Shown here in pieces: positions 10,134-62,885 of a DNA stretch of 64,000 nt. Position 1 is the stretch's first letter. The number at the start of each line of letters is the position of its first letter. The translations under genes and the position numbers were made by a program. This DNA is from Verrucomicrobiia bacterium. Its GTDB lineage: Bacteria; Verrucomicrobiota; Verrucomicrobiia; Limisphaerales; UBA9464. The DNA lies in contig JAHCBB010000006.1 in the NCBI GenBank assembly GCA_019634635.1, positions 115,211 through 179,210 on the forward strand. Direction: 5' to 3'. The notes beneath the pieces were generated by a model. It did no database searches and was not told the DNA's origin. It was given only the letters and a program-made list of their open reading frames with translations.

Positions 10134-11725
10134 GGCGCGGGATCCTTGGCAGTGGGGCCCCCCAGGGCCGCGGCCATCACGGCGTCGGGGTCGGACCCGC
10201 CGGGCATTGTTGCGACCATTCTGCCGGCTCGCATCACGCCGATCCGGTCGCTCAAGGTGAGCACCTCCGGAAGATCGCTGGAGATCATCAGCACGGCGAG
10301 ACCGTCGTCCGCAAGTTGGCGGATGCGGCGGTGGATTTCCTCCTTGGCCCCAACGTCCACGCCCTGGGTGGGCTCATCGAGGATGAGGACCTTCGGTGCC
10401 GCTGCGAGCCATCGGGCGAGGGCGACCTTCTGCTGGTTGCCCCCGGAGAGCGCACCTGCCGGTGTCTGCCCGTCCGGTGCCCGAATCCCAAGGTTGCGGA
10501 GAAAACCGGCGGTCAACTCCTGCTCGGCCCGCTCCCGGATCCATCCGCCCGGGAACAACGTGGGGTGCACGGCAAGAGTGACGTTGTGGGCAATGGGCAT
10601 CTCAAGGATCACTCCGTGCCGGCGGCGGTCCTCGGGAAGGCAGGCGATCCCGGCCTGGATGGCGTCGCGAGGGTTTCGAAGGTGCACCCTCCGGTCGTGG
10701 ATCCGGATTTCACCGGAATCGCAGGGATCCAGGCCGAAGAGGATCCGTGCGAGTTCGGTGCGTCCTGAGCCCACCATCCCTGCAAGACCCACGATCTCCC
10801 CCGCGTGGACCTCCAGGGAGACGTCGCGAACGCCAGTGCTGGCGCAGGCCACCCGATGGAGCGTGAGCACGACCGGTCCGCGCCTGCATCCCGGCTGGAG
10901 GCGTCCGGGTCGCACATCGCGCCCGACCATCAGCCGGATCAAGGCCGGTTCATCCAGCCGCTTCCCCTCCATGGGTTCTGGTCCCGGACTGGCGCCATTC
11001 CCCGGCGAAGGCGGATTTCCGAGTGAAGACTCCACTTCGGGACCGCGGACCCGGTGTGTCCCGACGCTCCGGCCATCGCGCAGAACGGTGACCCGGTCGG
11101 CAAGAGCGAACACCTCCTCCAAACGGTGGGTGATATAGAGAATCCCGGTGCCCTGATCACGCAGCCTCCGGAGCAGGGTGTGCAACCGCGCCTGATCGTC
11201 GCGGGTGAGTGACGCGGTGGGCTCGTCCAGGAGCAGCACCCGGGCACCCGTCCCGAGGGCGCAGGCGATTTCGACCAGCTGCTGCGCGGGCATGGAGAGC
11301 GTCTCCACGAGGGACTCGGGTGCGATCCGGGCACCGACCTTCCCGAGGAGTCCCGCCGCGCGGGCCCGGCGAGCCGACCATGAAATCCTCCGGAAGGCTG
11401 AACCCGACTCCAATCGCAGCGCGAGGTTTTCGGCGACGGTGAGCCCGGGGAACAGCGCGGGCTGCTGGTACACGCAGGCAATGCCAAGTCGGCGGGCCGA
11501 ATCGGGAGTGAGATTGCGAACCTGTTCGCCGGCGATGGTGATGGTTCCGGCGTCCGGGGTGTGGGCGCCGGTGATCATCCGGATCAGGGTGGACTTGCCG
11601 GCGCCATTTTCCCCGAGCAGCGCGTGGATTTCCCCAGGCCGCAGTTCGAACGAGACCCCTCCAAGAGCGCGGACGGCACCGAAGGACTTCTCGATGCCGT
11701 GGAGTTGGAGGAGGGGAGCGTTCAC
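10130..11725 (-). CDS. sugar ABC transporter ATP-binding protein with tandem NBDs
   Basis: The track ORF runs to 12151 but that extension overlaps lpxB and looks non-coding. Start set at GTG 11725 (VNAPLLQLHGIEKSF). Two Walker A motifs (GENGAGKST, GMVGSGRT) and two signature motifs (LSMPAQQ, LSGGNQQK). Confidence 0.85.
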   Translation of the reverse strand: MNAPLLQLHGIEKSFGAVRALGGVSFELRPGEIHALLGENGAGKSTLIRMITGAHTPDAGTITIAGEQVRNLTPDSARRLGIACVYQQPALFPGLTVAENLALRLESGSAFRRISWSARRARAAGLLGKVGARIAPESLVETLSMPAQQLVEIACALGTGARVLLLDEPTASLTRDDQARLHTLLRRLRDQGTGILYITHRLEEVFALADRVTVLRDGRSVGTHRVRGPEVESSLGNPPSPGNGASPGPEPMEGKRLDEPALIRLMVGRDVRPGRLQPGCRRGPVVLTLHRVACASTGVRDVSLEVHAGEIVGLAGMVGSGRTELARILFGLDPCDSGEIRIHDRRVHLRNPRDAIQAGIACLPEDRRRHGVILEMPIAHNVTLAVHPTLFPGGWIRERAEQELTAGFLRNLGIRAPDGQTPAGALSGGNQQKVALARWLAAAPKVLILDEPTQGVDVGAKEEIHRRIRQLADDGLAVLMISSDLPEVLTLSDRIGVMRAGRMVATMPGGSDPDAVMAAALGGPTAKDPAP

Positions 11726-11819
11726 GGGACGTTGGACGGTGGCGCGGGATCTGTTGCATCCGGGACGGACCCGCAAGGTTCCATGGGATGGGTCGGGGAC
11801 ATTGGGAGCGATCGCCGGA

Positions 11820-13022
11820 TCAGCGTGTCGTCGCCCCCGACGTCGGGGTCCCGCCACGGAGCAACGCCAGCAGCGCTGCGGCCGCGCGGTCGGAGGCTCC
11901 CGGGGGGCCGAGGGATCGGGCGATCGCGCGAAGCTGCCCGCGCAGGACTTGACGGCGGTGTGGAGCTTCCAGCAGGGACAGCAGCGCCTCCGCGAGCGCG
12001 CCGGGTGTGGCCAAGTGCTGGACGAACTCGGGCATGATGGGCGCGCCCGCCAGCAGGTTGGGCATGGCGAGGTGGGGCACCGTGACGATCCGGCGTCCGA
12101 TCTCAAACGTGAGCCGCGAGGTGCGATACAGCGCGACGGTGGGCACCCCATACCACGCGCACTCGAGGGTCACGGTGCCGGTGGAGGCGAGCGCAACGGT
12201 GGCCTCGCGCAACGTGGCGTCGAGGCCGCCAACCTGGATGATCGCTTCTGCGAAGTCGCGGGTCATCGCCTGGGCGGCCGGGCGGAGTTCCTCGCGCGGC
12301 AGCACCATCCGGAGGCGGCATCCCGTGCGTTGGGCCACCGCGCGTGCCGCCGGGAGCATCACGGGAAGGTGCCGCTGCAGTTCGCCCGGCCGGCTTCCGG
12401 GAAGCAACACCAGCAGCGGGGGGCGGTCCGTGGCAGGTTCCCCATCGTGGGGCGGCGGCGCGGTGGCATGGCGATCCACGATCGGATGGCCCACAAAGGT
12501 CACGGGGAGGCGCGGGGCGTTCTCTGCGAACCACCCTTTTTCGAACGGCAGGATCGAGAGCAGCAGGTCGTGCGTCCGTTCCATCCGGCGGGCGCGTCCA
12601 GGCCGCGACGCCCAGACCTGGGGGGCGATGTACTGGATGATGCGTGGACGCCAGTTCCGAAACGGCCCCTGGGACTGGAGTCGGGCCTCATGGACGGCTG
12701 AGGCCAGGCGCAGGTTGAATCCGGCGTAGTCCACGCCGACCACGGCATCGGCGCCTTCCGTCCGGGCAAGGCGAACGAGGTCGAGAAGCGCGCGTCGGAA
12801 CCAGGAAATCCGGCGCAGGATTTCGACGCCGATCACGGAGTGGCGGGTCATCTCGTGATGGAGGGTCACCCCCGCAGCGGCCATGGCCGGTCCGCCGGCG
12901 CCGAAGCATCGCGGCGGGACCGGACCCGCCGCGCGGCCGAGGGCCCGGACCAGTTCGGCTGCCGCGAGGTCGCCGCTGGGATCGCCGGCGACCAGCAGGA
13001 TCGCAAACGGCTTCATTGCCAC
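11820..13022 (-). CDS. lpxB: lipid-A-disaccharide synthase
   Basis: 400 aa. N-terminus KPFAILLVAGDPSGDLAAAELVRAL and overall GT19 layout. Confidence 0.85.
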   Translation of the reverse strand: MAMKPFAILLVAGDPSGDLAAAELVRALGRAAGPVPPRCFGAGGPAMAAAGVTLHHEMTRHSVIGVEILRRISWFRRALLDLVRLARTEGADAVVGVDYAGFNLRLASAVHEARLQSQGPFRNWRPRIIQYIAPQVWASRPGRARRMERTHDLLLSILPFEKGWFAENAPRLPVTFVGHPIVDRHATAPPPHDGEPATDRPPLLVLLPGSRPGELQRHLPVMLPAARAVAQRTGCRLRMVLPREELRPAAQAMTRDFAEAIIQVGGLDATLREATVALASTGTVTLECAWYGVPTVALYRTSRLTFEIGRRIVTVPHLAMPNLLAGAPIMPEFVQHLATPGALAEALLSLLEAPHRRQVLRGQLRAIARSLGPPGASDRAAAALLALLRGGTPTSGATTR

Positions 13023-13044
13023 GCCGCCGGAACCCGGCCGCCGC

Positions 13045-13698
13045 TCATGACTTCAGCACGGGTTCGTCGGGAAACTCATACATGAAGACGTTGTGAGGTA
13101 CGCTGTTGGCATCCACCTTGGCCAGCTGCTTCAGGTGGCCGGTGCGCATGTCGTAGATCCACCCGTGGATGGAGGGCCGCTTCTCCTCCTTCCATGCCCA
13201 TTGGACGAATGAGAGCTCGGCGAGGTGATGGACCTGCTCGTAGACGTTCAGCTCGGCGAGACGGTCGGCGCGGCGCTCCTCGTCGGGCATCGCGTCGAGT
13301 TCGGTGGCGTGCATGCGGTAGATGTCCTTGAGGTGGCGAAGCCACTTGTTGATCAGGCCCAGGTGTTTCCGGGACATGGCGGCCCGAACGCCGCCGCATC
13401 CGTAGTGGCCGCAAATGATGACGTGCTTCACCTTGAGCACCTCCACCGCGTACTGCACGACGCTGAGCATGTTGAAGTCGGTGTGCACCACGAGATTCGC
13501 GATGTTGCGATGCACGAAGAGTTCGCCGGGGGTGGCACCGGTGACCTCCTCGGCCGGCACCCGGCTGTCGGAGCAGCCAATCCAGAGAAAGGCCGGTTGC
13601 TGGCTCGCGGAGGACGCGGTGAAGAAGTCCGGGCGCAGGCTGAGCTTGTCCTGCACCCAGGCCTGATTGTTGAGAAGCAGACGCTTGTAGTCTTCCAT
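13045..13698 (-). CDS. can: beta-class carbonic anhydrase
   Basis: 217 aa. Zinc-ligand motifs CSDSRVP and HYGCGG. N-terminus LLLNNQAWV. Confidence 0.9.
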
Positions 13699-25249: not shown

Positions 25250-25630
25250 TCGCCGCGCGCGAAGCGTCGTGGAGTGCGGTAGCCCTCTACCGCTTTCCCC
25301 CAGGGTTCAACGAACGCGGGAGGAGAAGGATGCGCCTCCGACGCGGAAGGAAGCCGCGGTGGCAAAGCGCCAGGGGGCTGGCGCAGTCCAAGACCTGGCG
25401 GCGTGCCGATGGCTTGTGGCGGTCGCGAAGCGTCGTGGAGTGCGGTAGCCCTCTACCGCTTTCCCCCAAGGTTCAACGAACGCAGGAGGTGAAGGATGCG
25501 CCCCCGCCGTGGAAGGAAGCCGCGGTGGCAAAGCGCCAGGGGGCTGGCGCAGTCCAAGACCTGGCGGCGTGCCGATGGTTTGTGGCGGTCGCGAAGCGTC
25601 GTGGAGTGCGGTAGCCCTCTACCGCTTTTC
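25250..25630 (+). repeat. 166-bp tandem repeat array, left block (2 full units plus a unit truncated after its first hairpin)
   Basis: The anchor gaagcgtcgtggagtgcggtagcc starts at 25261, 25427 and 25593, with exact 166-bp spacing. The third unit stops after ...ctaccgctttt. Confidence 0.95.
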
Positions 25631-26262: not shown

Positions 26263-27140
26263 TTCGCGAAGCGTCGTGGAGTGCGGTAGCCCCCTACCGC
26301 TTTCCCCCAGGGTTCAACGAACGCGGGAGGTGAAGGATGCGCCCCCGACGTGGAAGGAAGCCGCGGTGGCAAAGCGCCAGGGGGCTGGCGCAGTCCAAGA
26401 CCTGGCGGCGTGCCGATGGCTTGTGGGGGTCGCGAAGCGTCGTGGAGTGCGGTAGCCCTCTACCGCTTTCCCCCAGGGTTCAACGAACGCGGGAGGTGAA
26501 GGATGCGCCCCCGCCGTGGAAGGAAGCCGCGGTGGCAAAGCGCCAGGGGGCTGGCGCAGTCCAAGACCTGGCGGCGTGCCGATGGCTTGTGGGGGTCGCG
26601 AAGCGTCGTGGAGTGCGGTAGCCCTCTACCGCTTTCCCCCGGGGTTCAACGAACGCGGGAGGTGAAGGATGCGCCCCCGACGCGGAAGGACGCCGCGGTG
26701 GCAAAGCGCCAAGGGGCTGGCGCAGTCCAAGACCTGGCGGCGTGCCGATGGCTTGTGGGGGTCGCGAAGCGTCGTGGAGTGCGGTAGCCCTCTACCGCTT
26801 TCCCCCGGGGTTCAACGAACGGGGGAGGAGAAGGATGCGCCCCCGACGCGGAAGGACGCCGCGGTGGCAAAGCGCCAGGGGGCTGGCGCAGTCCAAGACC
26901 TGGCGGCGTGCCGATGGCTTGTGGGGATCGCGAAGCGTCGTGGAGTGCGGTAGCCCTCTACCGCTTTCCCCCAGGGTTCAACGAACGCAGGAGGAGAAGG
27001 ATGCGCCCCCGACGTGGAAGGACGCCGCGGTGGTAAAGCGCCAGGGGGCTGGCGCAGTCCAAGACCTGGCGGCGTGTCGATGGCTTGTGGGGGTCGCGAA
27101 GCGTCGTGGAGTGCGGTAGCCCTCTACCGCTTTCCCCCCA
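26263..27140 (+). repeat. 166-bp tandem repeat array, right block (5 full units plus a truncated unit)
   Basis: Anchor starts at 26268, 26434, 26600, 26766, 26932 and 27098, all exactly 166 bp apart. The last unit keeps only the first hairpin. Differences between units are a few point changes in the inter-hairpin spacer. Confidence 0.95.
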
Positions 27141-32949: not shown

Positions 32950-33039
32950 TTCCGCGGAATGGGGGACGCCGGACCCGATGCCATCGGCCCGTCGGCCTTA
33001 CAGCCAACCGCACCGCACCGCACCGCACCGGACTTGGCC

Positions 33040-55324: not shown

Positions 55325-57319
55325 TCAGGTGTGATGTCCGGGCGCGGCGCCTGGAGCCTCGTCGCCCAGACCCCGCAGCAGGGCCTCTTGTTCGGCAGGG
55401 GGCCGGCGGGCGATTTCCGCCGCAAGGCCATCAATCAACGCCTCACGCATCTGATCGAGTGCGACCGCGAACCGGGCGACCACGGGATTTCGAAACAGCG
55501 TTGCGGGCGGTATGTCGAACCCGAGGTGGGGTTGCAGCCGGTTGAGCACCCGGGTCGCGCGCAGCGAGTCGCCACCCAGTGCGAAGAAGTTGTCCATCCG
55601 CCCGACGCGCGGTTGTTCCAGCACCGCGGCAAATGCCCCGGCCACCTGTTGTTCCATCGGGGTCGCGGGTTCGGCGAAGGGCGCGGACAGCGCCGCGGCG
55701 AAGCGGTCGGCAAGGCCCGTCCGCTGGAGCTTTCCCGTCGCCCCCTTGGGCAGGGCTTCAACGAGGAGGATCCGGCCGGGCACCTTGAACGCCGGCAATC
55801 GGCCGAACGCGTGGAGGCGCAGGGCCTCCTCGGTGAGGCGCGCTCCCGGTTGCGGAACGACGGCGGCTGCCACGTCCTCACCCAGCGTGGGGTGCGGCAC
55901 CGCAAACGCGACCGCCTCGGCCACCCCGTCAACGGCGAGCAGCACCTCGTCCACTTCGCGTGGTGCGATCTTTTCGCCCCCGCGGTTGATGAGGTCCTTC
56001 AACCGGCCGGTGAGGAACAGGTAGCCGTCGGCGTCGAGACGCCCCTGGTCCCCGGTTCGAAACCATCCGCCAACCCATGCCGTTGCGTTGTCTGTGGCCT
56101 CCTCGTAGCCGCGGGTGACGGACGGACCACGAATGACGACCTCACCCACGACCTCGGGCGGCAGGAGGTCCCCGGCGGGGCCCAGGATCGCCACTTCCGG
56201 GCCGGCGGCGGGTCCGACCGATCCGGGTTTGCGCGGGCGGGGAGGCAGGGGATTGCTCGCCATCTGGTGCGCGGCCTCCGTCATGCCGTACGACTCAATG
56301 ACCGGCACACCGAACGTCTCCTCCAATCCCATCATCAGGCTTGGGGGCAGCGCGGCCGAGGAGGAGCGGATGAGACGGAGCGTGTGGCGTCCGCCGGGCC
56401 CCCCGGCGGCCCGTACCCGGGACAGGATCGTTTGATGAAGGGTGGGTACTGCCGAGTACCAGGTGGGTTCCCATTGCTTCAGGGCGTCGAGAAATGCGTC
56501 GGCATCCGGCCGATCCGGGCAGACCACGCTGCCCGCCGATACGATCGGGGCGAGCAGGCCCGCGACCAGGCCGTGAATGTGGAAAAGCGGCATCAGGTTG
56601 AGGCATCGGTCGTCGGGTCCGAGCCGGAGGGTTTCGCCAATGGCCCGGGCCGACGCCAGCAGGTTGGCCTGCGTGAGCGGAACTCGCTTGGGTCGCGACG
56701 TGGTGCCCGAAGTGTGCAGCACCAGGGCCACATCCTCCGCCGATCCGGGCGTCCCCGACACGACCGGGGTCGGTGGCGCTTCCGGCAGGGAAAGCGAGGG
56801 GAACCGGGCGGGGTCCGATCGAAGCCGGAGGACCTCGATGCCCAGCCGGATCGCGAGGTCCCGGGCGGTGTCCGACTCCGCAAAAGCATCCGAGGCGATC
56901 AGACGGCGCGCCCCGAGGCTTTGCAGTTGAAACTCGAGGTCGGCGGGCGGCGCCTGGGAGTTGACGGGGGCGGCCACGGACCAGGAGGCCACGGCGAGAA
57001 AGGCCAGCGCCAGCTCCGGACCTTGCGGAATTGCCAGCGCCACCCGGTCCTGCGGTCCGATGCCCAGGCGACGCAATGTGGCGCCGAACTCCGCAACGAA
57101 ATCCCAGAGGCGATCGTACGACAGCGGCTCCCGGTGGGGGCCCAGCACTGCGGAACGGCCGGGGTGTTGAAGGGCGGTGCTGGACAGCACCGCTGCCAGG
57201 GAGGTCTCCGGGTTGAGGCCGGTGATGGGATCCCGCGCCGGGGGAACCTGCGAGGTGGGTGATGCCGAAGGCGTGCGGTCCACCCGGAGGAGCCTATGGG
57301 GTTTCCGATTCCGGCGCAT
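55325..57319 (-). CDS. adenylation (AMP-binding) domain fused to a peptidyl/acyl carrier protein domain (A-T didomain)
   Basis: Contains LHTSGTTSRPKRV and TGDQGRLDADGYLFLTGRLKDLINRGGEKI. The carrier site is FFALGGDSLRATRV. The start is uncertain: ATG candidates at 57415, 57379, 57355 and 57319, of which I list 57319. Confidence 0.85.
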   Translation of the reverse strand: MRRNRKPHRLLRVDRTPSASPTSQVPPARDPITGLNPETSLAAVLSSTALQHPGRSAVLGPHREPLSYDRLWDFVAEFGATLRRLGIGPQDRVALAIPQGPELALAFLAVASWSVAAPVNSQAPPADLEFQLQSLGARRLIASDAFAESDTARDLAIRLGIEVLRLRSDPARFPSLSLPEAPPTPVVSGTPGSAEDVALVLHTSGTTSRPKRVPLTQANLLASARAIGETLRLGPDDRCLNLMPLFHIHGLVAGLLAPIVSAGSVVCPDRPDADAFLDALKQWEPTWYSAVPTLHQTILSRVRAAGGPGGRHTLRLIRSSSAALPPSLMMGLEETFGVPVIESYGMTEAAHQMASNPLPPRPRKPGSVGPAAGPEVAILGPAGDLLPPEVVGEVVIRGPSVTRGYEEATDNATAWVGGWFRTGDQGRLDADGYLFLTGRLKDLINRGGEKIAPREVDEVLLAVDGVAEAVAFAVPHPTLGEDVAAAVVPQPGARLTEEALRLHAFGRLPAFKVPGRILLVEALPKGATGKLQRTGLADRFAAALSAPFAEPATPMEQQVAGAFAAVLEQPRVGRMDNFFALGGDSLRATRVLNRLQPHLGFDIPPATLFRNPVVARFAVALDQMREALIDGLAAEIARRPPAEQEALLRGLGDEAPGAAPGHHT

Positions 57320-57548
57320 CCACGGAATGCCCTTCGCCACGCGCGCGCTTGCCATCGGGGACTTGAGCCATGGAACCATCACGCGCTTCGCGGCGATGAA
57401 CGATCTCAGCGGCAAGGTGCTTCAATTCCAGAAGAGGCGGCACCGGCATCAGGAATGGATCCGGTTTCTGGGAGGCAAGGATCCTGCTTGACTTTCCTTC
57501 GCGGATGGCAGCAACTCGTTTCGACAACCTCAAACCGAACGTGAACTT

Positions 57549-57623
57549 CCCCGGCCCGACCTCTCCCCGGCCCGACCTCTCCCCGGCCCGACCTCTCCCC
57601 GGCCCGACCTCTCCCCGGCCCGA
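57549..57623. repeat. perfect 16-bp tandem repeat, 4 full copies plus an 11-nt partial copy
   Basis: ccccggcccgacctct occurs at 57549, 57565, 57581 and 57597, then ccccggcccga at 57613-57623. No mismatches. Confidence 0.97.
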
Positions 57624-57755
57624 GGAACCATCCTTCTGTTAGCAGCACTCCTGGCAGGAGTTGCTCTCCAGGCTCAACAAGAACGCTGGACTTCGCCAAA
57701 CGGCACTGGTGACGGAACAAGCACCAACGCGCCGAAGAAGTTCACCAACCTTGCG

Positions 57756-60700
57756 GTGAACGAGTGGCTCGATCAGACGAATGCGCTTCCGAATCTGACG
57801 ATCTACTTCCTCCCTGGAGACTACATGGTGGGTGGCACCAACAAGGGCCATACTAGCACCTCGGACGCGATCTGGATCAAGGGAAACACCAACCGAATCG
57901 TGCGCCTTGTGGGCATTCCCGACGCCAACGGCATTCGTCCACGGCTGGTGTTGGGGCCGCGGTCAGACACCAATAGCTGGCCCAATGAAAATTCCGCCCA
58001 CCAGTGGTTGATTCGCGTTGGTGCCTCAGGGACTCCCCTTAAGAACTTCTACCTCGACACCATCCAGGTCGAGAACCTCGTCCTGGATGGCAACTTTGGG
58101 GGCTTGGGAGCGTGGACCTCAGAGGCCAACGCCGGCGGCTATAAATCCTTTGCCCTCGATCTGGCGGCTTTCCGAGGCAGGGTTCGCAACGTCCTCATCC
58201 AGAACTTCGGTTCCGTCGGAAAGGTTCCCCTATCCCATCTCGACGGATTCGGGGGTGTGGAGGGATTCCCGGTTTTCATCCATACCTTTGATGACGGACA
58301 GGCCAATTTTCCGGGTGCCCCCGCGCCCTGGATCATCGAGGACGTCGAGGTTTCGAATTTCGGGGCACTCCATGCGGGATACTCGACAATCCTCATGCCC
58401 CACGTGTACCGAAATTCCAATGCACCCAGCACCACCCCGGTGGCCATCGTAAGACGATGCCAGGTGCGGGGCAATCCACGAACCATCGGGTCGGGCACCG
58501 GAGGTCGCTCGAGCGAATACCCCACGATCGCCAACTGGACCAATCACGCGGCCTTTACCGCCTCGGGCCGGATTCTCTTTGAGGACAATGTCTTCCTCAA
58601 CGTGGGCAGCGGGTTCAATTTGGACACCGGGACCCTCGGACCGCTGGTTTGGAACAACAACGCGTTTCTGGATGCAACGGTGCTTGGCTTTTTGGGAATT
58701 CCGGACAATTGGGGAGACCCCACCCAGAGGGGCCTCTTCGTCACCAACAACCTCATCCGGCTCGCGGGAAGAAATTTTCACCAGAATTACAGCGACATCT
58801 GCATAAACGATCCCGAAACCGCCCAGACCAACCCGAACTTGGGGCTGGGCCGGATCGAGACCAACGACTGCCATGGTCTCATCATCCGCGGTCGTGCGGG
58901 CGATGTGCATTTTCAGCACAACGACCTGACCACCTGGCCCCTGGCCAGCTTTTTCCGCCCAGATCCGGGTAACAGCGGGCAGTCCGTTTTCCGCCCCATC
59001 TGGAAGATTCCGACACTGTCGAACATCAACTGTTCCATTTATTCGCGGACCCGGGAGCCGGTGACCAACATGGTGCTCACCGCCAACCGGCTCTCGACGG
59101 TTGGCTATGACGTCACCAGTCCGACCCTTCTGCCCACCGCGACGTACGCATCCTTCACCCCCACATCGGCACCCCTGTACAACGACCTCCGAACCGCTGT
59201 ATCGCCCTCACCGGGCGGCTTCCAGCCTGCCGGCCGCCTGGAGCGGGTCGGCATGATCACCAATGGCTCCGGCCGCCTGACGGCCGTCCGGGAAGTGCAG
59301 ATCGGCCAGACCTCGTACTCAACCACCAACAACGGCACCCTCACGGTCGTCGTCCGAGTCGCCGATCAGCGCCTGGCTGCCGGTGGGGTGACCGGAACGC
59401 TGCCGGTTTCCGGGGTCTCGTTGAGACTGACCAACGCCATCATTCACCCCAATGGGAGCGTCACCAGCCATCTCATCGCGCAGACCAGCACCAACAATGG
59501 AACGGCAACGTTCACCCTCTCCAATCTGGCCGGGATCCACGGGATGTGCCGCCTGGCGGCCTTTGCGGATCTGGGAGCCGCCAACGGGCTGCTGGATCCC
59601 GATCGCGATGCCTGGTCCAGCCACAGTTTTCCCCTGGGAACAACGGTTGAACTGACCGCAAGTCCGGACGTGGGCGATGACAAGAATACGGCCTCCGCAA
59701 AGCGGGCCCGCATCCGCGTGCGTCGCAGCGGTCCCACCAGCAGCTCCCTTTCGGTCAACCTCTCCCTCCATTCGGGCGTGTTCGTTCGTCCCAACAATTT
59801 GAGCGATCTTGCGGCGACCTACGGGACTTCGGGCACCGCCGATTACTACATTTCCAACGGCACCGGCACCTGGTCCACCAGCAGCCCGTTCACCAACGGC
59901 ACCATCACCATCCCGGCGGGCAGCGACACCGCGGACGTGCAGATCGTCACCCGTGAGGACAACCTGACCGAGCAGAACATCATCGTGGCCCGCCTGGCCC
60001 TCTCTGCAAACTACGCGCCCGGGCTGTCCACCAACGTGCATGTCCTGATCTTTGACGGGCCGATGTGGACCCTCAAAGAGCTTTCCACTGATAACTCCGG
60101 ATACTATACAATTAATTCCCAAGCATACGCTCTGAATGACCTCAACGGGAGCACCCAACCCCGGGCGGCTGGTTTCGGTGATTTCGGCACCCTCAGCGGT
60201 ACCAACCTGATCTATGTTGCCTCGCGAGGAGGCCACTGGCAGCTTCCAAACGTGGCGTTCAACCCCATTGAGGATATGCAGTACTATGGGATCAGCACCG
60301 CCCCAATTCACCTGGTAGGGGGGGTGGGAAGCAATGCGCGCGTCCGGGTGCTTGGAGGTTCCGCAACTAATCTGCCCCACCTCTCCAGCGGTCCGAGCAC
60401 CGCATGGGGCATTGTCTCCAATGCAGCCTTGATCGTCGGGAGGAGCCGCAATGCGAACTCCACAAGTCGTCCAACCACCTGGGTGTGGGCCTCAACAAAC
60501 ACGGGCTATACACCGTTTGATGTCGGAGGCAATCTTAACAGTAGTTGGCCCGGGGAGGCATATGGCGCAAATTTAAACAACCAGGTAATCGGAGAACTTC
60601 GTGTGACCTACCAGAGCGGCCTGTCGAACTACGTGGCATTTCGCAGCCAAGCAGGCACGAGCGTCAAGGGCCTTGAGTTTAATCCGTCCGACGGTGCCGG

Positions 60701-61184
60701 CGATATTTTAAGAGCCCCCGGAACGAGTGGGGGTCAGAATCTCAAATCCAGAGGCACAGCGGTCAATAGTTCGGGTCACGCAGTGGGGTGGTATGAAACC
60801 GACTCGGCAGTAAGACGGGCGGTCTATTGGCCGAGTTCTGGATTGGGATCCCAGTCCAGTTCATTGGATCTTAATGCTTGGAAAGCTCGTATTGGTACAT
60901 CTGAAGACTCCCGAAGTTCTGCAAACGCCATCTCCAGTTCTGGTTGGATTGCAGGCTGGTCAAATACAAATAATTCACCTGGAAGAGCAGTGCTCAAAAG
61001 AAGTCCAAACGCCAGTGCGACCGACTGGGTTGATTTGAATGACCCGCACTTCACTCATGCCCCAAGTGGATGGATTCTGAAGGACGCGTCAGGCATAAAT
61101 GCCTCGGGCCAAATTGTCGGGAATGGGTTGTTTAATGGAAGCCAGCGCGCGTTTGTATTAATTCCAAGGACCTCTGGAAATTAG
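57756..61184 (+). CDS. large secreted/surface protein: N-terminal right-handed beta-helix-like region, central Calx-beta-like segment, C-terminal HAF-type repeats; 5' end unresolved
   Basis: 1142-aa track ORF from GTG 57756. The frame stays open upstream to 57492 and encodes a signal-peptide core at 57621-57689, but there is no in-frame start there. C-terminal repeats (AYALNDLNG, AYGANLNNQVIGE, GTAVNSSGHAVGW, ASGINASGQIVGNG...RAFVL) resemble the HAF extracellular repeat. Confidence 0.75.
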   Translation: MNEWLDQTNALPNLTIYFLPGDYMVGGTNKGHTSTSDAIWIKGNTNRIVRLVGIPDANGIRPRLVLGPRSDTNSWPNENSAHQWLIRVGASGTPLKNFYLDTIQVENLVLDGNFGGLGAWTSEANAGGYKSFALDLAAFRGRVRNVLIQNFGSVGKVPLSHLDGFGGVEGFPVFIHTFDDGQANFPGAPAPWIIEDVEVSNFGALHAGYSTILMPHVYRNSNAPSTTPVAIVRRCQVRGNPRTIGSGTGGRSSEYPTIANWTNHAAFTASGRILFEDNVFLNVGSGFNLDTGTLGPLVWNNNAFLDATVLGFLGIPDNWGDPTQRGLFVTNNLIRLAGRNFHQNYSDICINDPETAQTNPNLGLGRIETNDCHGLIIRGRAGDVHFQHNDLTTWPLASFFRPDPGNSGQSVFRPIWKIPTLSNINCSIYSRTREPVTNMVLTANRLSTVGYDVTSPTLLPTATYASFTPTSAPLYNDLRTAVSPSPGGFQPAGRLERVGMITNGSGRLTAVREVQIGQTSYSTTNNGTLTVVVRVADQRLAAGGVTGTLPVSGVSLRLTNAIIHPNGSVTSHLIAQTSTNNGTATFTLSNLAGIHGMCRLAAFADLGAANGLLDPDRDAWSSHSFPLGTTVELTASPDVGDDKNTASAKRARIRVRRSGPTSSSLSVNLSLHSGVFVRPNNLSDLAATYGTSGTADYYISNGTGTWSTSSPFTNGTITIPAGSDTADVQIVTREDNLTEQNIIVARLALSANYAPGLSTNVHVLIFDGPMWTLKELSTDNSGYYTINSQAYALNDLNGSTQPRAAGFGDFGTLSGTNLIYVASRGGHWQLPNVAFNPIEDMQYYGISTAPIHLVGGVGSNARVRVLGGSATNLPHLSSGPSTAWGIVSNAALIVGRSRNANSTSRPTTWVWASTNTGYTPFDVGGNLNSSWPGEAYGANLNNQVIGELRVTYQSGLSNYVAFRSQAGTSVKGLEFNPSDGAGDILRAPGTSGGQNLKSRGTAVNSSGHAVGWYETDSAVRRAVYWPSSGLGSQSSSLDLNAWKARIGTSEDSRSSANAISSSGWIAGWSNTNNSPGRAVLKRSPNASATDWVDLNDPHFTHAPSGWILKDASGINASGQIVGNGLFNGSQRAFVLIPRTSGN

Positions 61185-61200
61185 TAGGTCCACCACGAAG

Positions 61201-61977
61201 ATGAAACGTACATATGTCAGCGCTCTTCTGAGCTGCACGGTGTTTGCCTCCGCACAGCCGATCCCGAATCTAGGGTTGATTGAAGCCATTGACTTCGACG
61301 AGAATGGCACGACCGACATCGGGTACGTATCGGATGGAATAAAATCTGCTGACACCCCGGAAACGTGGCGAGTGAGCTATGGCATCGCACCTTGGAACGC
61401 TTCACGGTTCGTTCGTGCGACCAGCAGGCGCCTGCCGTTTCTTGCTGGAGAGATTGTGGACGTCAGGAAGCAATCTCTCACCAATTACTTTCCCGATCCG
61501 CCACGTCCTCCATCAGAGAACTATGGTATTCGCCTTCTTGAGTATCGGGCCATCATGAAGAACGACTGGGAATTTGCGACGATCGGTGAATCCGCGTTTG
61601 AACGCGAGAAGGATCTTCTTCTCGGCCTGCGGCTCGCCCTTGTGACGGGTTTCCACCACGGCTGGCTCCGGCTCAGCCGTCCGGTGGTGGACAGCCACAC
61701 GCCGTTTGAGGTGACGGGGGTCGCCTTCCACCCGGTACCCGGGGAACCGATCGTTGCCGGTGAGGCACCCCCGCTGCCTCCGATCCAGCACCGCCTGGAT
61801 TCTGAAGGCCTCGCGCTTTGGTGGGACGTGCGCTGGGGCAACCTGCTGCTGGAAACCGCCGATCACCTCGACCCTCCCGTGGAGTGGGAACCGGTGGCGG
61901 TCGCAGCCGGCGGTCCGATCACCGTGGCCGGCGGGGAGGAATCCCGGCGGTTCTATCGTTTGCGTGTTCCTCCATGA
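61201..61977 (+). CDS. secreted protein of unknown function
   Basis: 258 aa. Signal peptide [20 protein letters not shown]. 16 bp after the upstream stop. Its own stop overlaps the next start (ATGA). Confidence 0.6.
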
Positions 61978-62885
61978 ACCTTGCAAAGCCCAGCGATCGG
62001 GCAAGCTTCAGCCGCGCGAGGTCCTGGTGTATGGGGCGGGAATCGCGCGGAAGGCGGAGGGGGTTCACGCTGGTGGAACTTCTGGTGGTCGTCGCGGTGA
62101 TCGCCCTGCTGGCCGGCCTGCTGTTGCCCGCACTGATCGGTGCGCGGCAGAAGGCCGGTGCGGTGGCGTGCGTCAACAACCTGCGCCAGCTCACGCTGGC
62201 GTGGTTGTTGTATGCACCGGATTGCCGGGACTGGATGTCCCCGTCGGAGACGAGCACCGGCGAACCCCATCTGCCGCGATGGGTGGAGGGCTACTACCTG
62301 GGCATCATGAGCGATGCCGACGCCGCGAATACGGACCAGCTCCTGGCGCCCGGCCCCGGTCACCTCGGGCCGTATTTGCGCGAAGCCCGCGTGTTTCGTT
62401 GTCCGGATGACCACAGCCGGGCCAACTTGGTCAAGAACCGGGGTGCGCGTCGTTCGCGCAGTTACTCGATGAACAATTTCATCGTCTTCGGTGGCAGCGG
62501 CGTGGGACGCCTGCCCGATGGGGAACTCGCGTACGATCCGGTGGCGTTGGTGCGCATGGACGACTTTCGGGCCGTGTCGCCCTCGGGATTCTACGTGTTC
62601 ATTGACTCCCATCCGTGGACCCTCACCCACGGGATGTTTCTCATCCAGCCTGGCCTTCCGCCGGAGGAGTACGCCTGGGTTGGCAAGTGGCCGGCCGGAC
62701 GGCGCGCGCGGCGGTGTCCCGTGAGCTTTGCCGATGGTCACGTGGAGCTTCGTAAATGGGTGGATTCCCGCACTGCCCCGGTGATCCGAACCCTTGAGGA
62801 GGCTTCCGCAGCTGCGGACATCAACCGCCGGAACAACCCCGACTTCCTCTGGCTCTGGGAGCGTGCCTGGGATCCGGGGAGGTGA
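61974..62885 (+). CDS. prepilin-type N-terminal cleavage/methylation domain protein (DUF1559-like)
   Basis: Start set at ATG 61974 (MNLAKPSD...[35 protein letters not shown]). C-terminal [12 protein letters not shown]. Confidence 0.8.

What the first reader, a model, noticed from the sequence alone, without database searches (positions are those of the whole stretch)
57505..57756. A perfect 16-bp tandem repeat separates the only ATG from the signal peptide of a 1142-aa surface protein, out of frame by one unit: candidate slipped-strand phase switch
**The repeat.** ccccggcccgacctct occurs 4 times, followed by an 11-nt partial copy, at 57549-57623 with no mismatch.

**The large ORF has no usable start upstream.** Reading upstream from the track start (GTG 57756), the frame stays open to 57492. 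It encodes RGTILLLAALLAGVALQAQQERW at 57621-57689, a typical signal-peptide hydrophobic core. That frame has no ATG, GTG or TTG before 57756. As written, the big protein would therefore start after its own signal peptide.

**The upstream ATG is in another frame.** The only upstream ATG is at 57505 (MAATRFDNLKPNVNFPG...). It is 116 nt from codon 57621, and 116 mod 3 = 2. It reads through the repeat and stops at TAG 57640-57642 after 45 codons.

**One unit restores the frame.** 16 mod 3 = 1. Gaining one unit (132 nt) or losing two units (84 nt) fuses ATG 57505 in frame to the signal peptide and the whole 1142-aa ORF.

**Interpretation.** Perfect unit identity plus this frame arithmetic is the classic layout of a contingency locus in the OFF state. 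The alternative is a collapsed repeat in the assembly.
Basis: partly seen in the sequence, partly recalled or inferred. Interest (0 to 1): 0.8.

Follow-up and report, generated by a model that had tools for sequence, protein, structure and literature searches.

The report
Frame-shifting repeat switch in secreted-protein leader
A perfect 16-base repeat sits between the start codon and the export signal of a large secreted protein gene in an uncultured Verrucomicrobium and currently knocks it out of frame; relatives of the same gene carry different frame-breaking repeats at the same spot, with copy numbers that differ between samples, so this is most likely a reversible on/off switch of the kind known from pathogens.

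Summary
The 16-nt unit occurs 4 times plus an 11-nt partial copy at 57549-57623, with no mismatch. ATG 57505 reads through the array and stops at TAG 57640. The big ORF is open from 57492 but has no ATG, GTG or TTG before GTG 57756. That annotated start cuts off a signal peptide and an N-terminal motif that homologues conserve. Copy numbers of 2.7, 5.7 or 8.7 fuse ATG 57505 to the whole gene.

The interpretation gains strong comparative support. In 195 kb of window plus homologous loci, every strong short-period array lies in the 5' leader of this gene family. The units are unrelated and none is a multiple of three: 16, 19 and 8 nt. The 19-nt array occurs at 1, 2, 3 and 6 full units in different samples. 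Two alleles with identical 3.6-kb coding sequence differ by one unit. In-frame alleles exist (L011, L023), and the coding sequence is under purifying selection (dN/dS 0.14-0.30).

No second allele or read set for the window's own locus could be obtained, so switching at this locus is inferred and not shown. This is a new member of a known kind (Opa-type slipped-strand phase variation), unusual for its long units, its phylum and its recurrence across the family.

The parts
57505..57548 (+). Start codon ATG 57505 and the pre-array leader codons (MAATRFDNLKPNVN, then F across the boundary). This frame is 57505 mod 3.
   Evidence: Translation. Codon-usage log-likelihood is +3.2 in this frame against -5.7 and -4.9 in the other two. 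In-frame windows of the big gene average +5.1 and out-of-frame windows -6.6 and -8.4. Chance P is 0.02-0.10 depending on the null.
57549..57623 (+). Perfect tandem array of CCCCGGCCCGACCTCT x4 plus an 11-nt partial unit. It has no stop codon in any forward frame and encodes the 16-aa periodic peptide PRPDLSPARPLPGPTS.
   Evidence: TRF score 152.
57505..57642 (+). The 45-codon dead-end ORF produced in the present 4.7-copy (OFF) state. It ends at TAG 57640-57642.
57621..57674 (+). Signal peptide remnant in the big-ORF frame: RGT, hydrophobic core ILLLAALLAGVAL (57630-57668), then QA (57669-57674). The cleavage site LQA|QQERW is inferred from homologues.
   Evidence: Homologues have a hydrophobic core followed by x-x-x-W/Y-x-S-P-x-G-x-G.
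57675..61184 (+). Mature part of the large all-beta secreted protein, including the stop codon at 61182-61184. The frame is open from 57492.
   Evidence: Homologues align over the full length at 34-54% identity. The family has 109 cluster representatives at E<=1e-10. The structure model is all-beta, mean pLDDT 65.8.
57756..57758 (+). GTG used as start in the public annotation (P0001, KF791_06275, 1142 aa). It truncates the signal peptide and the conserved W-x-S-P-x-G-x-G motif.
57622..57638 (+). Elements relevant to the rival reading: Shine-Dalgarno-like GAGGA (57622-57626), ATC 57630 and CTG 57636 in the big-ORF frame.
   Evidence: Read directly. No canonical start is present here.
61201..61977 (+). 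Conserved downstream partner gene, 258 aa, with its own signal-peptide-like N-terminus.
   Evidence: A 253-273 aa gene follows the big gene in L001, L002-L004, L007, L008 and L023. The identical protein is found in Logan assemblies of SRR12908307 and SRR12908314.
61974..62885 (+). Third gene of the cassette, pseudopilin-like, with a prepilin-type N-terminal cleavage/methylation domain. Its ATG overlaps the preceding stop (ATGA).
   Evidence: NCBIfam TIGR02532 at 28.7 bits (cutoff 16.3) and GspG-like N-terminus. N_methyl genes sit at the same position in L001-L004.
55325..57415 (-). Divergent upstream neighbour, not part of the switch: an AMP-binding / PP-binding enzyme. It bounds the intergenic region; its likely ATG starts are at about 57379 or 57355.
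   Evidence: Pfam PF00501 at 1e-72, plus PF13193 and PF00550. N-terminal translation.

Best explanation
The 16-nt array is a hypermutable, frame-shifting module inside the N-terminal leader (the signal-peptide n-region) of a large secreted all-beta protein.

**Mechanism.**
- Translation starts at ATG 57505.
- The array is translated as a Pro/Arg/Ser-rich spacer.
- The hydrophobic core ILLLAALLAGVAL follows immediately after the array.
- Because 16 = 1 mod 3, each gain or loss of a unit moves the export signal and the 1164-codon mature region into or out of the ATG frame. Such changes arise by slipped-strand mispairing at replication or by unequal exchange between units.

**States.**
- With 2, 5 or 8 full units, a full-length precursor is made with a 46-, 62- or 78-aa leader (ON).
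- With 4 units, as assembled, ribosomes stop at TAG 57640 after 45 codons and no export-competent protein is made (OFF).
- In the third frame they stop at 57710 (OFF).

The gene therefore behaves as a stochastic, heritable and reversible ON/OFF switch. The assembled consensus shows the OFF state.

**Shown:** the array, the frames, homology of the signal peptide, copy-number polymorphism and ON/OFF alleles in homologous loci, and purifying selection.

**Inferred:** that ATG 57505 is the start used, that the copy number changes in this lineage, and that the switch is selected for and not merely tolerated.
For: 1. The anatomy and frame arithmetic were verified.
2. The signal peptide and the following W-x-S-P-x-G-x-G motif are homologous to those of family members, so the annotated GTG start is a truncation.
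3. In 195,412 bases (the window plus 23 loci), all 8 arrays with period <=40 and TRF score >=70 lie in the 5' leader of this gene family. They are 16 nt x4.8 (window), 19 nt x2.6/3.6/6.6 (L008, L019, L016, L020, L018) and 8 nt x9.1 (L011; L009 starts inside it).
4. Copy number is polymorphic.
   - The 19-mer has 1 full unit in L023, 2 in L008 and L019, 3 in L016 and L020, and 6 in L018.
   - L019 and L020 have 100% identical 3582-nt CDS but 2 versus 3 units.
   - The 6 units of L018 all share one variant base, which points to recent in-situ expansion.
5. ON alleles exist.
   - In L011, the ATG is in frame through 9 units.
   - In L023, the ATG is in frame with 1 unit.
   - L007 has an unexpanded, diverged homologue of the 19-mer, in frame.
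6. In all three 19-mer backgrounds, exactly n=1 restores a 1245-1247-aa ORF, despite a 6-nt frame-preserving indel in the leader.
7. dN/dS is 0.14-0.30 for the diverged allele pairs, those involving L008 or L016, although every assembled allele of that group is OFF.
8. ON-state leaders in relatives are 53-78 aa long. This matches the 46-62 aa predicted for the window.
9. Pre-array codon usage fits the ATG frame, but the support is weak.
10. Several contigs end at or near the arrays (L009, L017, L018, L021, L022), as expected for heterogeneous or cyclic graph regions.
Against: - No second allele and no reads were available for the window's own locus, so variation there is inferred from relatives at 46-58% protein identity.
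- All five assembled alleles of the 19-mer P0004 group whose array is complete are OFF. The only n=1 allele is in a 57%-identical relative. Expansions could therefore be largely one-way inactivations.
- The 19-nt unit has a stop codon in one frame, so that array can be ON only at n=1. That is a duplication/excision switch and not a true multi-state SSR.
- There is no Shine-Dalgarno sequence upstream of ATG 57505, and no promoter-like site was found.
- A TTGACT hexamer lies 11 nt upstream of the ATG.
- The codon-usage signal rests on 14 codons, and the same frame also scores positive upstream of the ATG.
- Slippage rates for 16-nt units at about 5 copies are unknown and probably far lower than for homopolymers.
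Confidence: 0.7

Rival explanations
1. Irreversible or neutral decay. The array is a recent accidental tandem expansion that has simply inactivated the gene, making it a young pseudogene. Family-wide expansions would reflect a mutational hotspot in a dispensable gene and not a selected switch.
For: All five assembled 19-mer alleles of the P0004 group are OFF. No ON allele of the window lineage exists in 5.8 billion clustered proteins. Many family representatives are called with truncated N-termini. The gene has atypical G+C (52-64% against about 70% upstream), and one homologue lies in a mobile-element context, which is typical of accessory genes.
Against: The 1187-codon frame is otherwise intact and aligns end to end with homologues. 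dN/dS is 0.14-0.30 among OFF alleles. The n=1 state restores the ORF in three diverged backgrounds, and the leader indel preserves the frame. ON alleles exist in relatives. A perfect array is intrinsically reversible.
Confidence: 0.12
2. Assembly or consensus miscount. The true, fixed copy number is in frame (5.7 or 2.7), and the gene is constitutively ON.
For: The sequence is a metagenome-assembled genome. Arrays with a 16-nt period form cycles in de Bruijn graphs when k is smaller than the array. Contigs of relatives often break at the arrays.
Against: The array is only 75 nt long, shorter than normal reads. The same contig carries intact 875-bp and 370-bp arrays of a 166-bp unit and many long intact ORFs, so repeat handling and indel quality look good. 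Out-of-frame copy numbers occur independently in five other assemblies of a homologous locus, so no artefact is needed.
Confidence: 0.08
3. The array is not in the main coding path. The big ORF starts just after the array at a non-canonical codon (ATC 57630 or CTG 57636), served by the GAGGA at 57622-57626. The ATG 57505 ORF is a 45-codon upstream ORF whose stop at 57640 overlaps that start. Copy number would then tune translational coupling or mRNA structure instead of fusing frames.
For: GAGGA lies 3 nt before ATC and 9 nt before CTG. ILLLAALLAG lines up with the N-terminus MLLAATVLYL of the paralogue P0008, and some homologues have short signal peptides, for example MKVNWLMILFLTYTGSSLVAFG in L002. 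In the present state the uORF stop lies 10 nt past ATC 57630.
Against: ATC and CTG starts are very rare in bacteria (general knowledge). The resulting 13-15-aa signal peptide has no n-region and is shorter than any verified family leader. Relatives with arrays clearly use an ATG upstream of the array (L011, L023). No terminator-like or notably stable RNA structure is present (z = +0.59). The P0008 start is itself an unverified annotation.
Confidence: 0.08

Closest known systems
Neisseria opa genes: CTCTT pentamer repeats in the leader-peptide coding region (PMC5354566)
   Same: A perfect tandem repeat with a unit that is not a multiple of three lies inside the signal/leader-peptide coding region of a surface protein gene. 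It is readable in all frames. Gain or loss of units puts the mature protein in or out of frame with the ATG, giving translational ON/OFF phase variation.
   Different: The unit is 16 nt (19 and 8 nt in relatives) instead of 5 nt, with about 5 copies instead of 7-28. The array encodes a Pro-rich n-region spacer and not the hydrophobic core. The host is an uncultured, apparently free-living Verrucomicrobium. Switching has not been measured.
Pneumococcal capsule phase variation by spontaneous tandem duplication in cap3A (Waite et al. 2001, recalled from memory and not checked here)
   Same: ON is the unduplicated sequence. A tandem duplication of a unit that is not a multiple of three inside the ORF switches the gene OFF, and precise loss restores it. 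This matches the 19-mer relatives, where only n=1 is ON and n=2, 3 and 6 are OFF.
   Different: In the window the array has no stop in any frame and is ON at 2, 5 and 8 units, so it behaves as a multi-state SSR. Here the duplication site is fixed and recurrent, and not variable within the gene.
Haemophilus / Campylobacter simple-sequence contingency loci (tetranucleotide or poly-G tracts in 5' coding regions; PMC2651432, PMC6321876)
   Same: Hypermutable repeats in the 5' coding regions of surface-related genes, with copy number differing between otherwise near-identical strains.
   Different: Those units are 1-7 nt with many copies, and they occur as genome-wide 'phasomes' in host-adapted pathogens. 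Here only one such array occurs in 64 kb, and the units are of minisatellite size.
Streptococcus gallolyticus pil1 leader-peptide GCAGA repeats with attenuation (PMC3894217)
   Same: A repeat that shifts the frame of an upstream leader ORF controls a downstream surface-structure operon.
   Different: That system needs a separate leader ORF, a downstream gene with its own start, and a transcription terminator. Here the main ORF has no start of its own, and no terminator-like hairpin is found.

Membership tests
Slipped-strand (SSR) translational phase-variation locus, Opa type | Perfect tandem repeat with a unit length not divisible by 3, located within the 5' coding region | tested here: met
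   16 nt x4.7, 100% identity, 44 nt downstream of ATG 57505 and abutting the signal-peptide core.
Slipped-strand (SSR) translational phase-variation locus, Opa type | The repeat is translatable (no stop codon), so some copy numbers give an intact ORF from the start codon | tested here: met
   No stop in any forward frame. Copy numbers of 2, 5 and 8 full units give 1215-, 1231- and 1247-aa ORFs.
Slipped-strand (SSR) translational phase-variation locus, Opa type | Copy number differs among cells or strains of the same lineage | not testable with these tools
   No reads were available. The two-unit probe is absent from genome, metagenome and viral collections. Logan contigs of the same population do not reach the array. 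In the homologous 19-mer locus the feature is met, with 1, 2, 3 and 6 units, and with 2 versus 3 units on an identical CDS.
Slipped-strand (SSR) translational phase-variation locus, Opa type | High-frequency, reversible ON/OFF switching of the product | not testable with these tools
   This needs cultures, reporters or deep reads. Indirect support comes from purifying selection on OFF alleles (dN/dS 0.14-0.30) and the existence of ON alleles.
Slipped-strand (SSR) translational phase-variation locus, Opa type | Short unit (1-9 nt), as in catalogued SSR contingency loci | tested here: not met
   The unit is 16 nt here, and 19 and 8 nt in relatives. This is a difference of degree and does not affect the mechanism.
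Reversible tandem-duplication switch (pneumococcal cap3A type) | ON is the single-copy sequence, and any duplication is OFF | tested here: not met
   In the window, 0 and 1 full units are OFF and 2, 5 and 8 are ON. The feature is met for the 19-mer relatives, where only n=1 is ON.
Leader-peptide / attenuation phase variation (S. gallolyticus pil1 type) | A separate leader ORF, an intrinsic terminator, and a downstream gene with its own start | tested here: not met
   No terminator-like site in 57000-58000. The RNA fold is not more stable than shuffles. The main ORF has no canonical start before 57756.
Promoter-spacer or upstream-repeat transcriptional phase variation | The repeat lies between or just upstream of the -35/-10 elements | tested here: inconclusive
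   No sigma-70-like site was found, and Verrucomicrobial promoters are not covered by the scan. The array is 75 nt long, too long for a promoter spacer.
Sec-type signal peptide on the product | n-region with positive charge, hydrophobic core, small-residue cleavage site | tested here: met
   In ON states the sequence is ...SPARGT-ILLLAALLAGVAL-QA|QQERW, aligned with the cores and cleavage regions of homologues. No dedicated signal-peptide predictor was available, so this was judged by eye.

The most novel reading that the evidence does not exclude
The switch is an evolved, family-level trait. Free-living Verrucomicrobiota have repeatedly built minisatellite-size arrays with units not divisible by three (8, 16 and 19 nt, unrelated sequences) at the same position of the same secreted-protein gene. 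They also preserve the slippage-prone seed: the 30-nt proto-repeat CCGGCGGCCTTGGCTTAAGCCGGCGGCCTT is 100% identical between loci whose proteins are only 57% identical. This would imply second-order selection for switchable expression of this surface or secreted protein, for example to escape phages or grazers that use it as a receptor. Natural populations would sit mostly in the OFF state.
Probability: 0.35. Interest if true: 0.75.

Novelty: new member of a known kind. Interest (0 to 1): 0.58.

Why it matters
Repeat-driven phase variation is documented almost entirely in host-adapted pathogens and with units of 1-7 nt. This case differs in three ways. The same logic operates in uncultured environmental Verrucomicrobiota. 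The units are 8-19 nt. It recurs independently across a conserved gene family, and copy-number polymorphism is visible directly in public metagenomes.

There are practical consequences.
- Annotation pipelines mis-start or truncate these genes. P0001, P0004 and P0005 are all called inside or after the signal peptide.
- Assemblies break at the arrays.

If selection for switching is confirmed, the family would be a tractable marker for studying bet-hedging against phages or grazers in natural freshwater, soil or wastewater communities. It would also point to the unknown function of the conserved three-gene cassette (big all-beta protein, 255-aa protein, pseudopilin-like protein).

Tried and rejected
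- **Exact look-ups in this MAG.** Neither the annotated protein P0001 nor the paralogue P0008 is on record.
- **Two-unit 32-mer probe.** It gave 0 hits in genome contigs, metagenome contigs and viral contigs.
- **The search for related loci with the protein in genome contigs.** It found no relative, so the species representative does not carry a close orthologue.
- **Homology search with a reconstructed ON-allele N-terminus (160 aa).** It returned nothing, not even P0001, which shares 70 identical residues with the query. It therefore failed its own positive control and I treat it as uninformative.
- **Logan contigs L005 and L006.** They come from the same population (0-2 SNPs) but cover only the 3' end and the next gene.
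- **Annotation of the big protein.** Pfam found no family and the only NCBIfam match (HAF repeat, 19.5 bits) is below its cutoff; PDB sequence search found no hit. Foldseek against PDB gave only weak beta-propeller and Ig-stack matches, with TM <=0.16 on the query. The function stays unknown.
- **Promoter/terminator scan and RNA folding of the leader.** Nothing was found.
- **Rfam at the gathering threshold on the whole window.** No hit.
- **Programmed ribosomal frameshifting.** I considered and rejected it, because inspection shows no X XXY YYZ slippery heptamer in the array.
- **A Tat signal.** I considered and rejected it, because TRFDNLK has a single Arg and is separated from the hydrophobic core by the array.
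- **Nanopore homopolymer error.** This would mean a systematic error in every unit turning an 18-nt unit into 16 nt. I rejected it as numerology, given the long intact ORFs elsewhere in the window.
- **Absence of stop codons in the unit.** This is not significant by itself. I estimate about 65% of random units of this composition would also lack stops.
Full report
**1. Observation**

- Tandem Repeats Finder reports one array at 57548-57623 with period 16, 4.8 copies, 100% matches and score 152. This is the strongest short-period array in the 64-kb window.
- The 16-mer CCCCGGCCCGACCTCT occurs four times head to tail at 57549-57612. It occurs nowhere else in the window, even with two mismatches allowed. 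None of 100 shuffles reached four matches.
- A script confirmed that 57549-57623 equals four units plus the first 11 nt of a fifth.
- ATG 57505 opens a 45-codon ORF that reads through the array and stops at TAG 57640-57642.
- The large ORF is in a different frame. It is open from 57492, after a TGA stop, to 61184. It encodes ...ARGTILLLAALLAGVALQAQQERWTSPNGTGDG... and has no ATG, GTG or TTG before GTG 57756.
- I rebuilt the locus with 0-10 full units. Only 2, 5 or 8 full units join ATG 57505 to the whole ORF. The other two frame classes stop at 57640 or 57710.

**2. What the gene is**

- The window comes from a Verrucomicrobiae MAG. The public annotation (P0001, KF791_06275) starts the protein at GTG 57756, giving 1142 aa.
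- Homologues at 34-54% identity align over the whole length. An exhaustive HMMER scan finds 109 cluster representatives at E<=1e-10.
- All well-formed family members begin with a hydrophobic signal-peptide core followed by a conserved W/Y-x-S/A-P-x-G-x-G motif. In the window both features lie upstream of the annotated GTG, so that start is a truncation.
- Pfam finds no family and PDB sequence search no hit; NCBIfam gives only a sub-threshold HAF-repeat match at the C-terminus (19.5 bits, cutoff 22.65).
- An AlphaFold model (mean pLDDT 65.8) is all-beta. Foldseek gives only weak matches to beta-propellers and Ig-domain stacks.
- The gene heads a conserved cassette: the big protein, a protein of about 255 aa, and a pseudopilin-like protein of about 300 aa with a prepilin-type N-terminal methylation domain.
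- Its G+C content (52-64%) is lower than that of the upstream DNA (about 70%). One homologue lies beside TraG/TrwB, MazE and integrase genes. The cassette therefore looks accessory.

**3. Comparative evidence**

This evidence decided the case. I fetched DNA around homologues and found that the same position of the gene carries other perfect tandem arrays with unrelated units. That position lies between the start codon and the signal-peptide core.

*The 19-mer locus in L008.*
- L008 is a JGI metagenome locus encoding P0004, which is 46% identical to the window protein.
- The unit CCGGCGGCCTTGGCTTAAG is present at 2.6 copies, between an upstream ATG (MKNPIRLPLVAP...) and the core ...FSACLVWALAMILQFHAHA|TDIYFSP.
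- The ATG frame and the gene frame differ by one unit.
- The annotated start sits inside the hydrophobic core.

*The 8-mer locus.*
- L011 is 58% identical to the window protein.
- It has CCTTACGT x9.1 beginning 9 nt after its ATG, and here the ATG is in frame with the whole gene. This is an ON allele. Its leader is MQHPYVLTSLRPYVLTSLRPYVLTSLR....
- L009 is 98.4% identical to L011 at the nucleotide level, and its contig begins inside the same array.

There are 8 such arrays of three unit types.

**4. Copy-number polymorphism**

Alleles of the 19-mer locus from different samples carry different numbers of full units.

| Locus | JGI sample | Full units |
|---|---|---|
| L008 | 3300044636 | 2 |
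| L019 | 3300034020 | 2 |
| L016 | 3300043773 | 3 |
| L020 | 3300042945 | 3 |
| L018 | 3300042468 | 6 (all share one variant base) |

- L019 and L020 have 100% identical 3582-nt coding sequences but differ by exactly one unit. The array therefore changes faster than any point substitution in 3.6 kb.
- The 19-nt unit has a stop codon in one frame, so only n=1 gives an intact ORF. In all three sequence backgrounds n=1 does restore a 1245-1247-aa ORF from the upstream ATG. This holds even though the L018 leader has a 6-nt indel, which preserves the frame.
- That n=1 state exists in nature. L023 (NCBI GCA_043755815.1, protein P0005) has exactly one full unit plus the 11-nt partial. Its ATG is in frame through MSILHCSPAPALSGGLGLSRRPSSS...WLLFLSLLFCGLPRLGA|TDRYLSPTGTGDG, although the annotation again picks a downstream ATG.
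- L007 carries a diverged, single-copy, in-frame version (GLGLSR) of the same leader.
- Among the P0004-group alleles, dN/dS is 0.14-0.30 for the diverged pairs, those involving L008 or L016 (dS up to 0.12). The gene is therefore maintained by selection, even though every assembled allele whose array is complete is OFF.
- Five contigs end in or next to the arrays: L009, L017, L018, L021 and L022. This is what heterogeneous or cyclic graph regions produce.

**5. Mechanism proposed for the window**

- Translation begins at ATG 57505.
- The array is translated as a Pro/Arg/Ser-rich spacer (period PRPDLSPARPLPGPTS) in the n-region of a long signal peptide.
- The core ILLLAALLAGVAL and the cleavage region QA|QQERW follow directly.
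- Slipped-strand mispairing, or unequal exchange between the perfect units, changes the copy number. Each step shifts the frame because 16 = 1 mod 3.
- The assembled 4.7-copy state is OFF. A gain of one unit or a loss of two gives ON, with a leader of 62 or 46 aa. That is within the 53-78 aa seen in ON relatives (L007, L023, L011 and P0030).
- Weak extra support comes from codon usage. The 14 codons before the array fit the big gene's codon usage in the ATG frame (+3.2) and not in the other frames (-5.7, -4.9). Chance P is 0.02-0.10.
- The steps that remain inferred are use of ATG 57505, actual switching in this lineage, and adaptive value.

**6. Rivals**

- **(a) Young pseudogene or neutral hotspot (0.12).** This is favoured by the all-OFF consensus in the 19-mer group and by the absence of any ON allele of the window lineage. 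It is disfavoured by the intact 1187-codon frame, purifying selection, frame-preserving leader evolution and the ON relatives.
- **(b) Assembly miscount (0.08).**
  - It is possible in principle.
  - The array is only 75 nt long.
  - The contig resolves 875-bp arrays of a 166-bp unit and long ORFs.
  - OFF copy numbers recur in five independent assemblies of the homologous locus.
- **(c) Array in a 5' UTR or uORF, with a non-canonical start after it (0.08).**
  - GAGGA at 57622-57626 precedes ATC 57630 and CTG 57636.
  - ILLLAALLAG resembles the annotated N-terminus of paralogue P0008.
  - The resulting 13-15-aa signal peptide would have no n-region.
  - Such start codons are very rare.
  - No terminator or unusually stable RNA structure is present.
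  - Relatives demonstrably start upstream of their arrays.

**7. Comparison with known systems**

The closest known system is Neisseria opa, where CTCTT repeats in the leader-peptide coding region put the gene in or out of frame (PMC5354566). The logic is the same. The differences are:
- the unit length (16 nt, or 19 and 8 nt in relatives, against 5 nt);
- the low copy number;
- the part of the leader that is encoded;
- the organism, an uncultured and apparently non-pathogenic Verrucomicrobium;
- the recurrence at one gene position with unrelated units.

The 19-mer relatives work more like the pneumococcal cap3A duplication switch, in which a single copy is ON and any duplication is OFF. I recall that system from memory and did not check it here. 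The S. gallolyticus pil1 leader/attenuator model (PMC3894217) does not fit, because there is no terminator and the main ORF has no start of its own. Literature searches found no report of repeat-mediated phase variation in Verrucomicrobia.

**8. Verdict**

- The mechanism is a known one, so I file this as a new member of a known kind. The notable extensions are the minisatellite-size units, an environmental phylum, convergent recurrence, and polymorphism visible in public metagenomes.
- Interest is 0.58.
- The most novel reading still open is second-order selection for a mutable leader module across the family. The hint is a 30-nt proto-repeat that is 100% identical between loci whose proteins are 57% identical. 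I give it a probability of about 0.35.

Noticed in passing
window 25258-25628 and 26264-27138: There are two arrays of a 166-bp G+C-rich tandem repeat, with 2.2 and 5.3 copies at 96-97% identity, about 640 bp apart. Each unit contains an inverted segment (GTGGAGTGCGGTAGCCC.CTACCGC). No Rfam family matches anywhere in the window. Their nature is unknown.
   Followed up: partly
L023:1273-1500 and L008:1357-1405: The 30-nt proto-repeat CCGGCGGCCTTGGCTTAAGCCGGCGGCCTT is 100% identical between two loci whose big proteins are only 57% identical. It contains the palindrome GGCTTAAGCC. L007 has a diverged version. This suggests conservation at the DNA level, or transfer of the leader module between lineages.
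   Followed up: partly
P0031, P0040, P0044, P0062, P0063, P0072, P0105 (family representatives): Many family members are annotated with N-termini that begin inside or after the signal peptide, for example MIIQSHAHATDIYFSP, MSATLTRWYSVNG and MDYYVAP. They may be further OFF alleles or mis-called starts. Their DNA could not be fetched because the look-ups were exhausted.
   Followed up: no
L019 vs L020 (whole 6585-nt loci): The two loci differ by 29 substitutions and one 19-nt unit, yet none of the substitutions falls in the 3582-nt big-protein CDS. This distribution looks mosaic or recombinational.
   Followed up: no
L018:170-250 vs L008:1406-1500: The leader segment between array and signal-peptide core is far more diverged between these two alleles than the CDS. 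The leader has many substitutions and a 6-nt indel in about 90 nt, against 43 differences in 3.6 kb of CDS.
   Followed up: no
L002:1-1342 and 11338-13549: The homologous cassette of P0003 lies between a TraG/TrwB-type coupling protein gene and HTH, MazE antitoxin and phage-integrase genes. This suggests the cassette can ride on an integrative mobile element.
   Followed up: no
window 33007-33030: A perfect ACCGC x4.8 repeat lies in the short spacer between two convergent ORF ends. It has no evident consequence for any reading frame.
   Followed up: partly
window 61170-61184 and C-termini of all homologues: The family ends in a conserved C-terminal motif, (F/V)(V/L)L(I/V)PR-x-x-G(N/Q), at the very end of the protein. 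It could be a sorting or processing signal. It is not a PEP-CTERM motif.
   Followed up: no
window 57457-57484: Two GGATCC palindromes 22 nt apart lie in the divergent intergenic region, just upstream of TTGACT (57488-57493) and ATG 57505. They could be an operator or part of the promoter. This was not tested.
   Followed up: no
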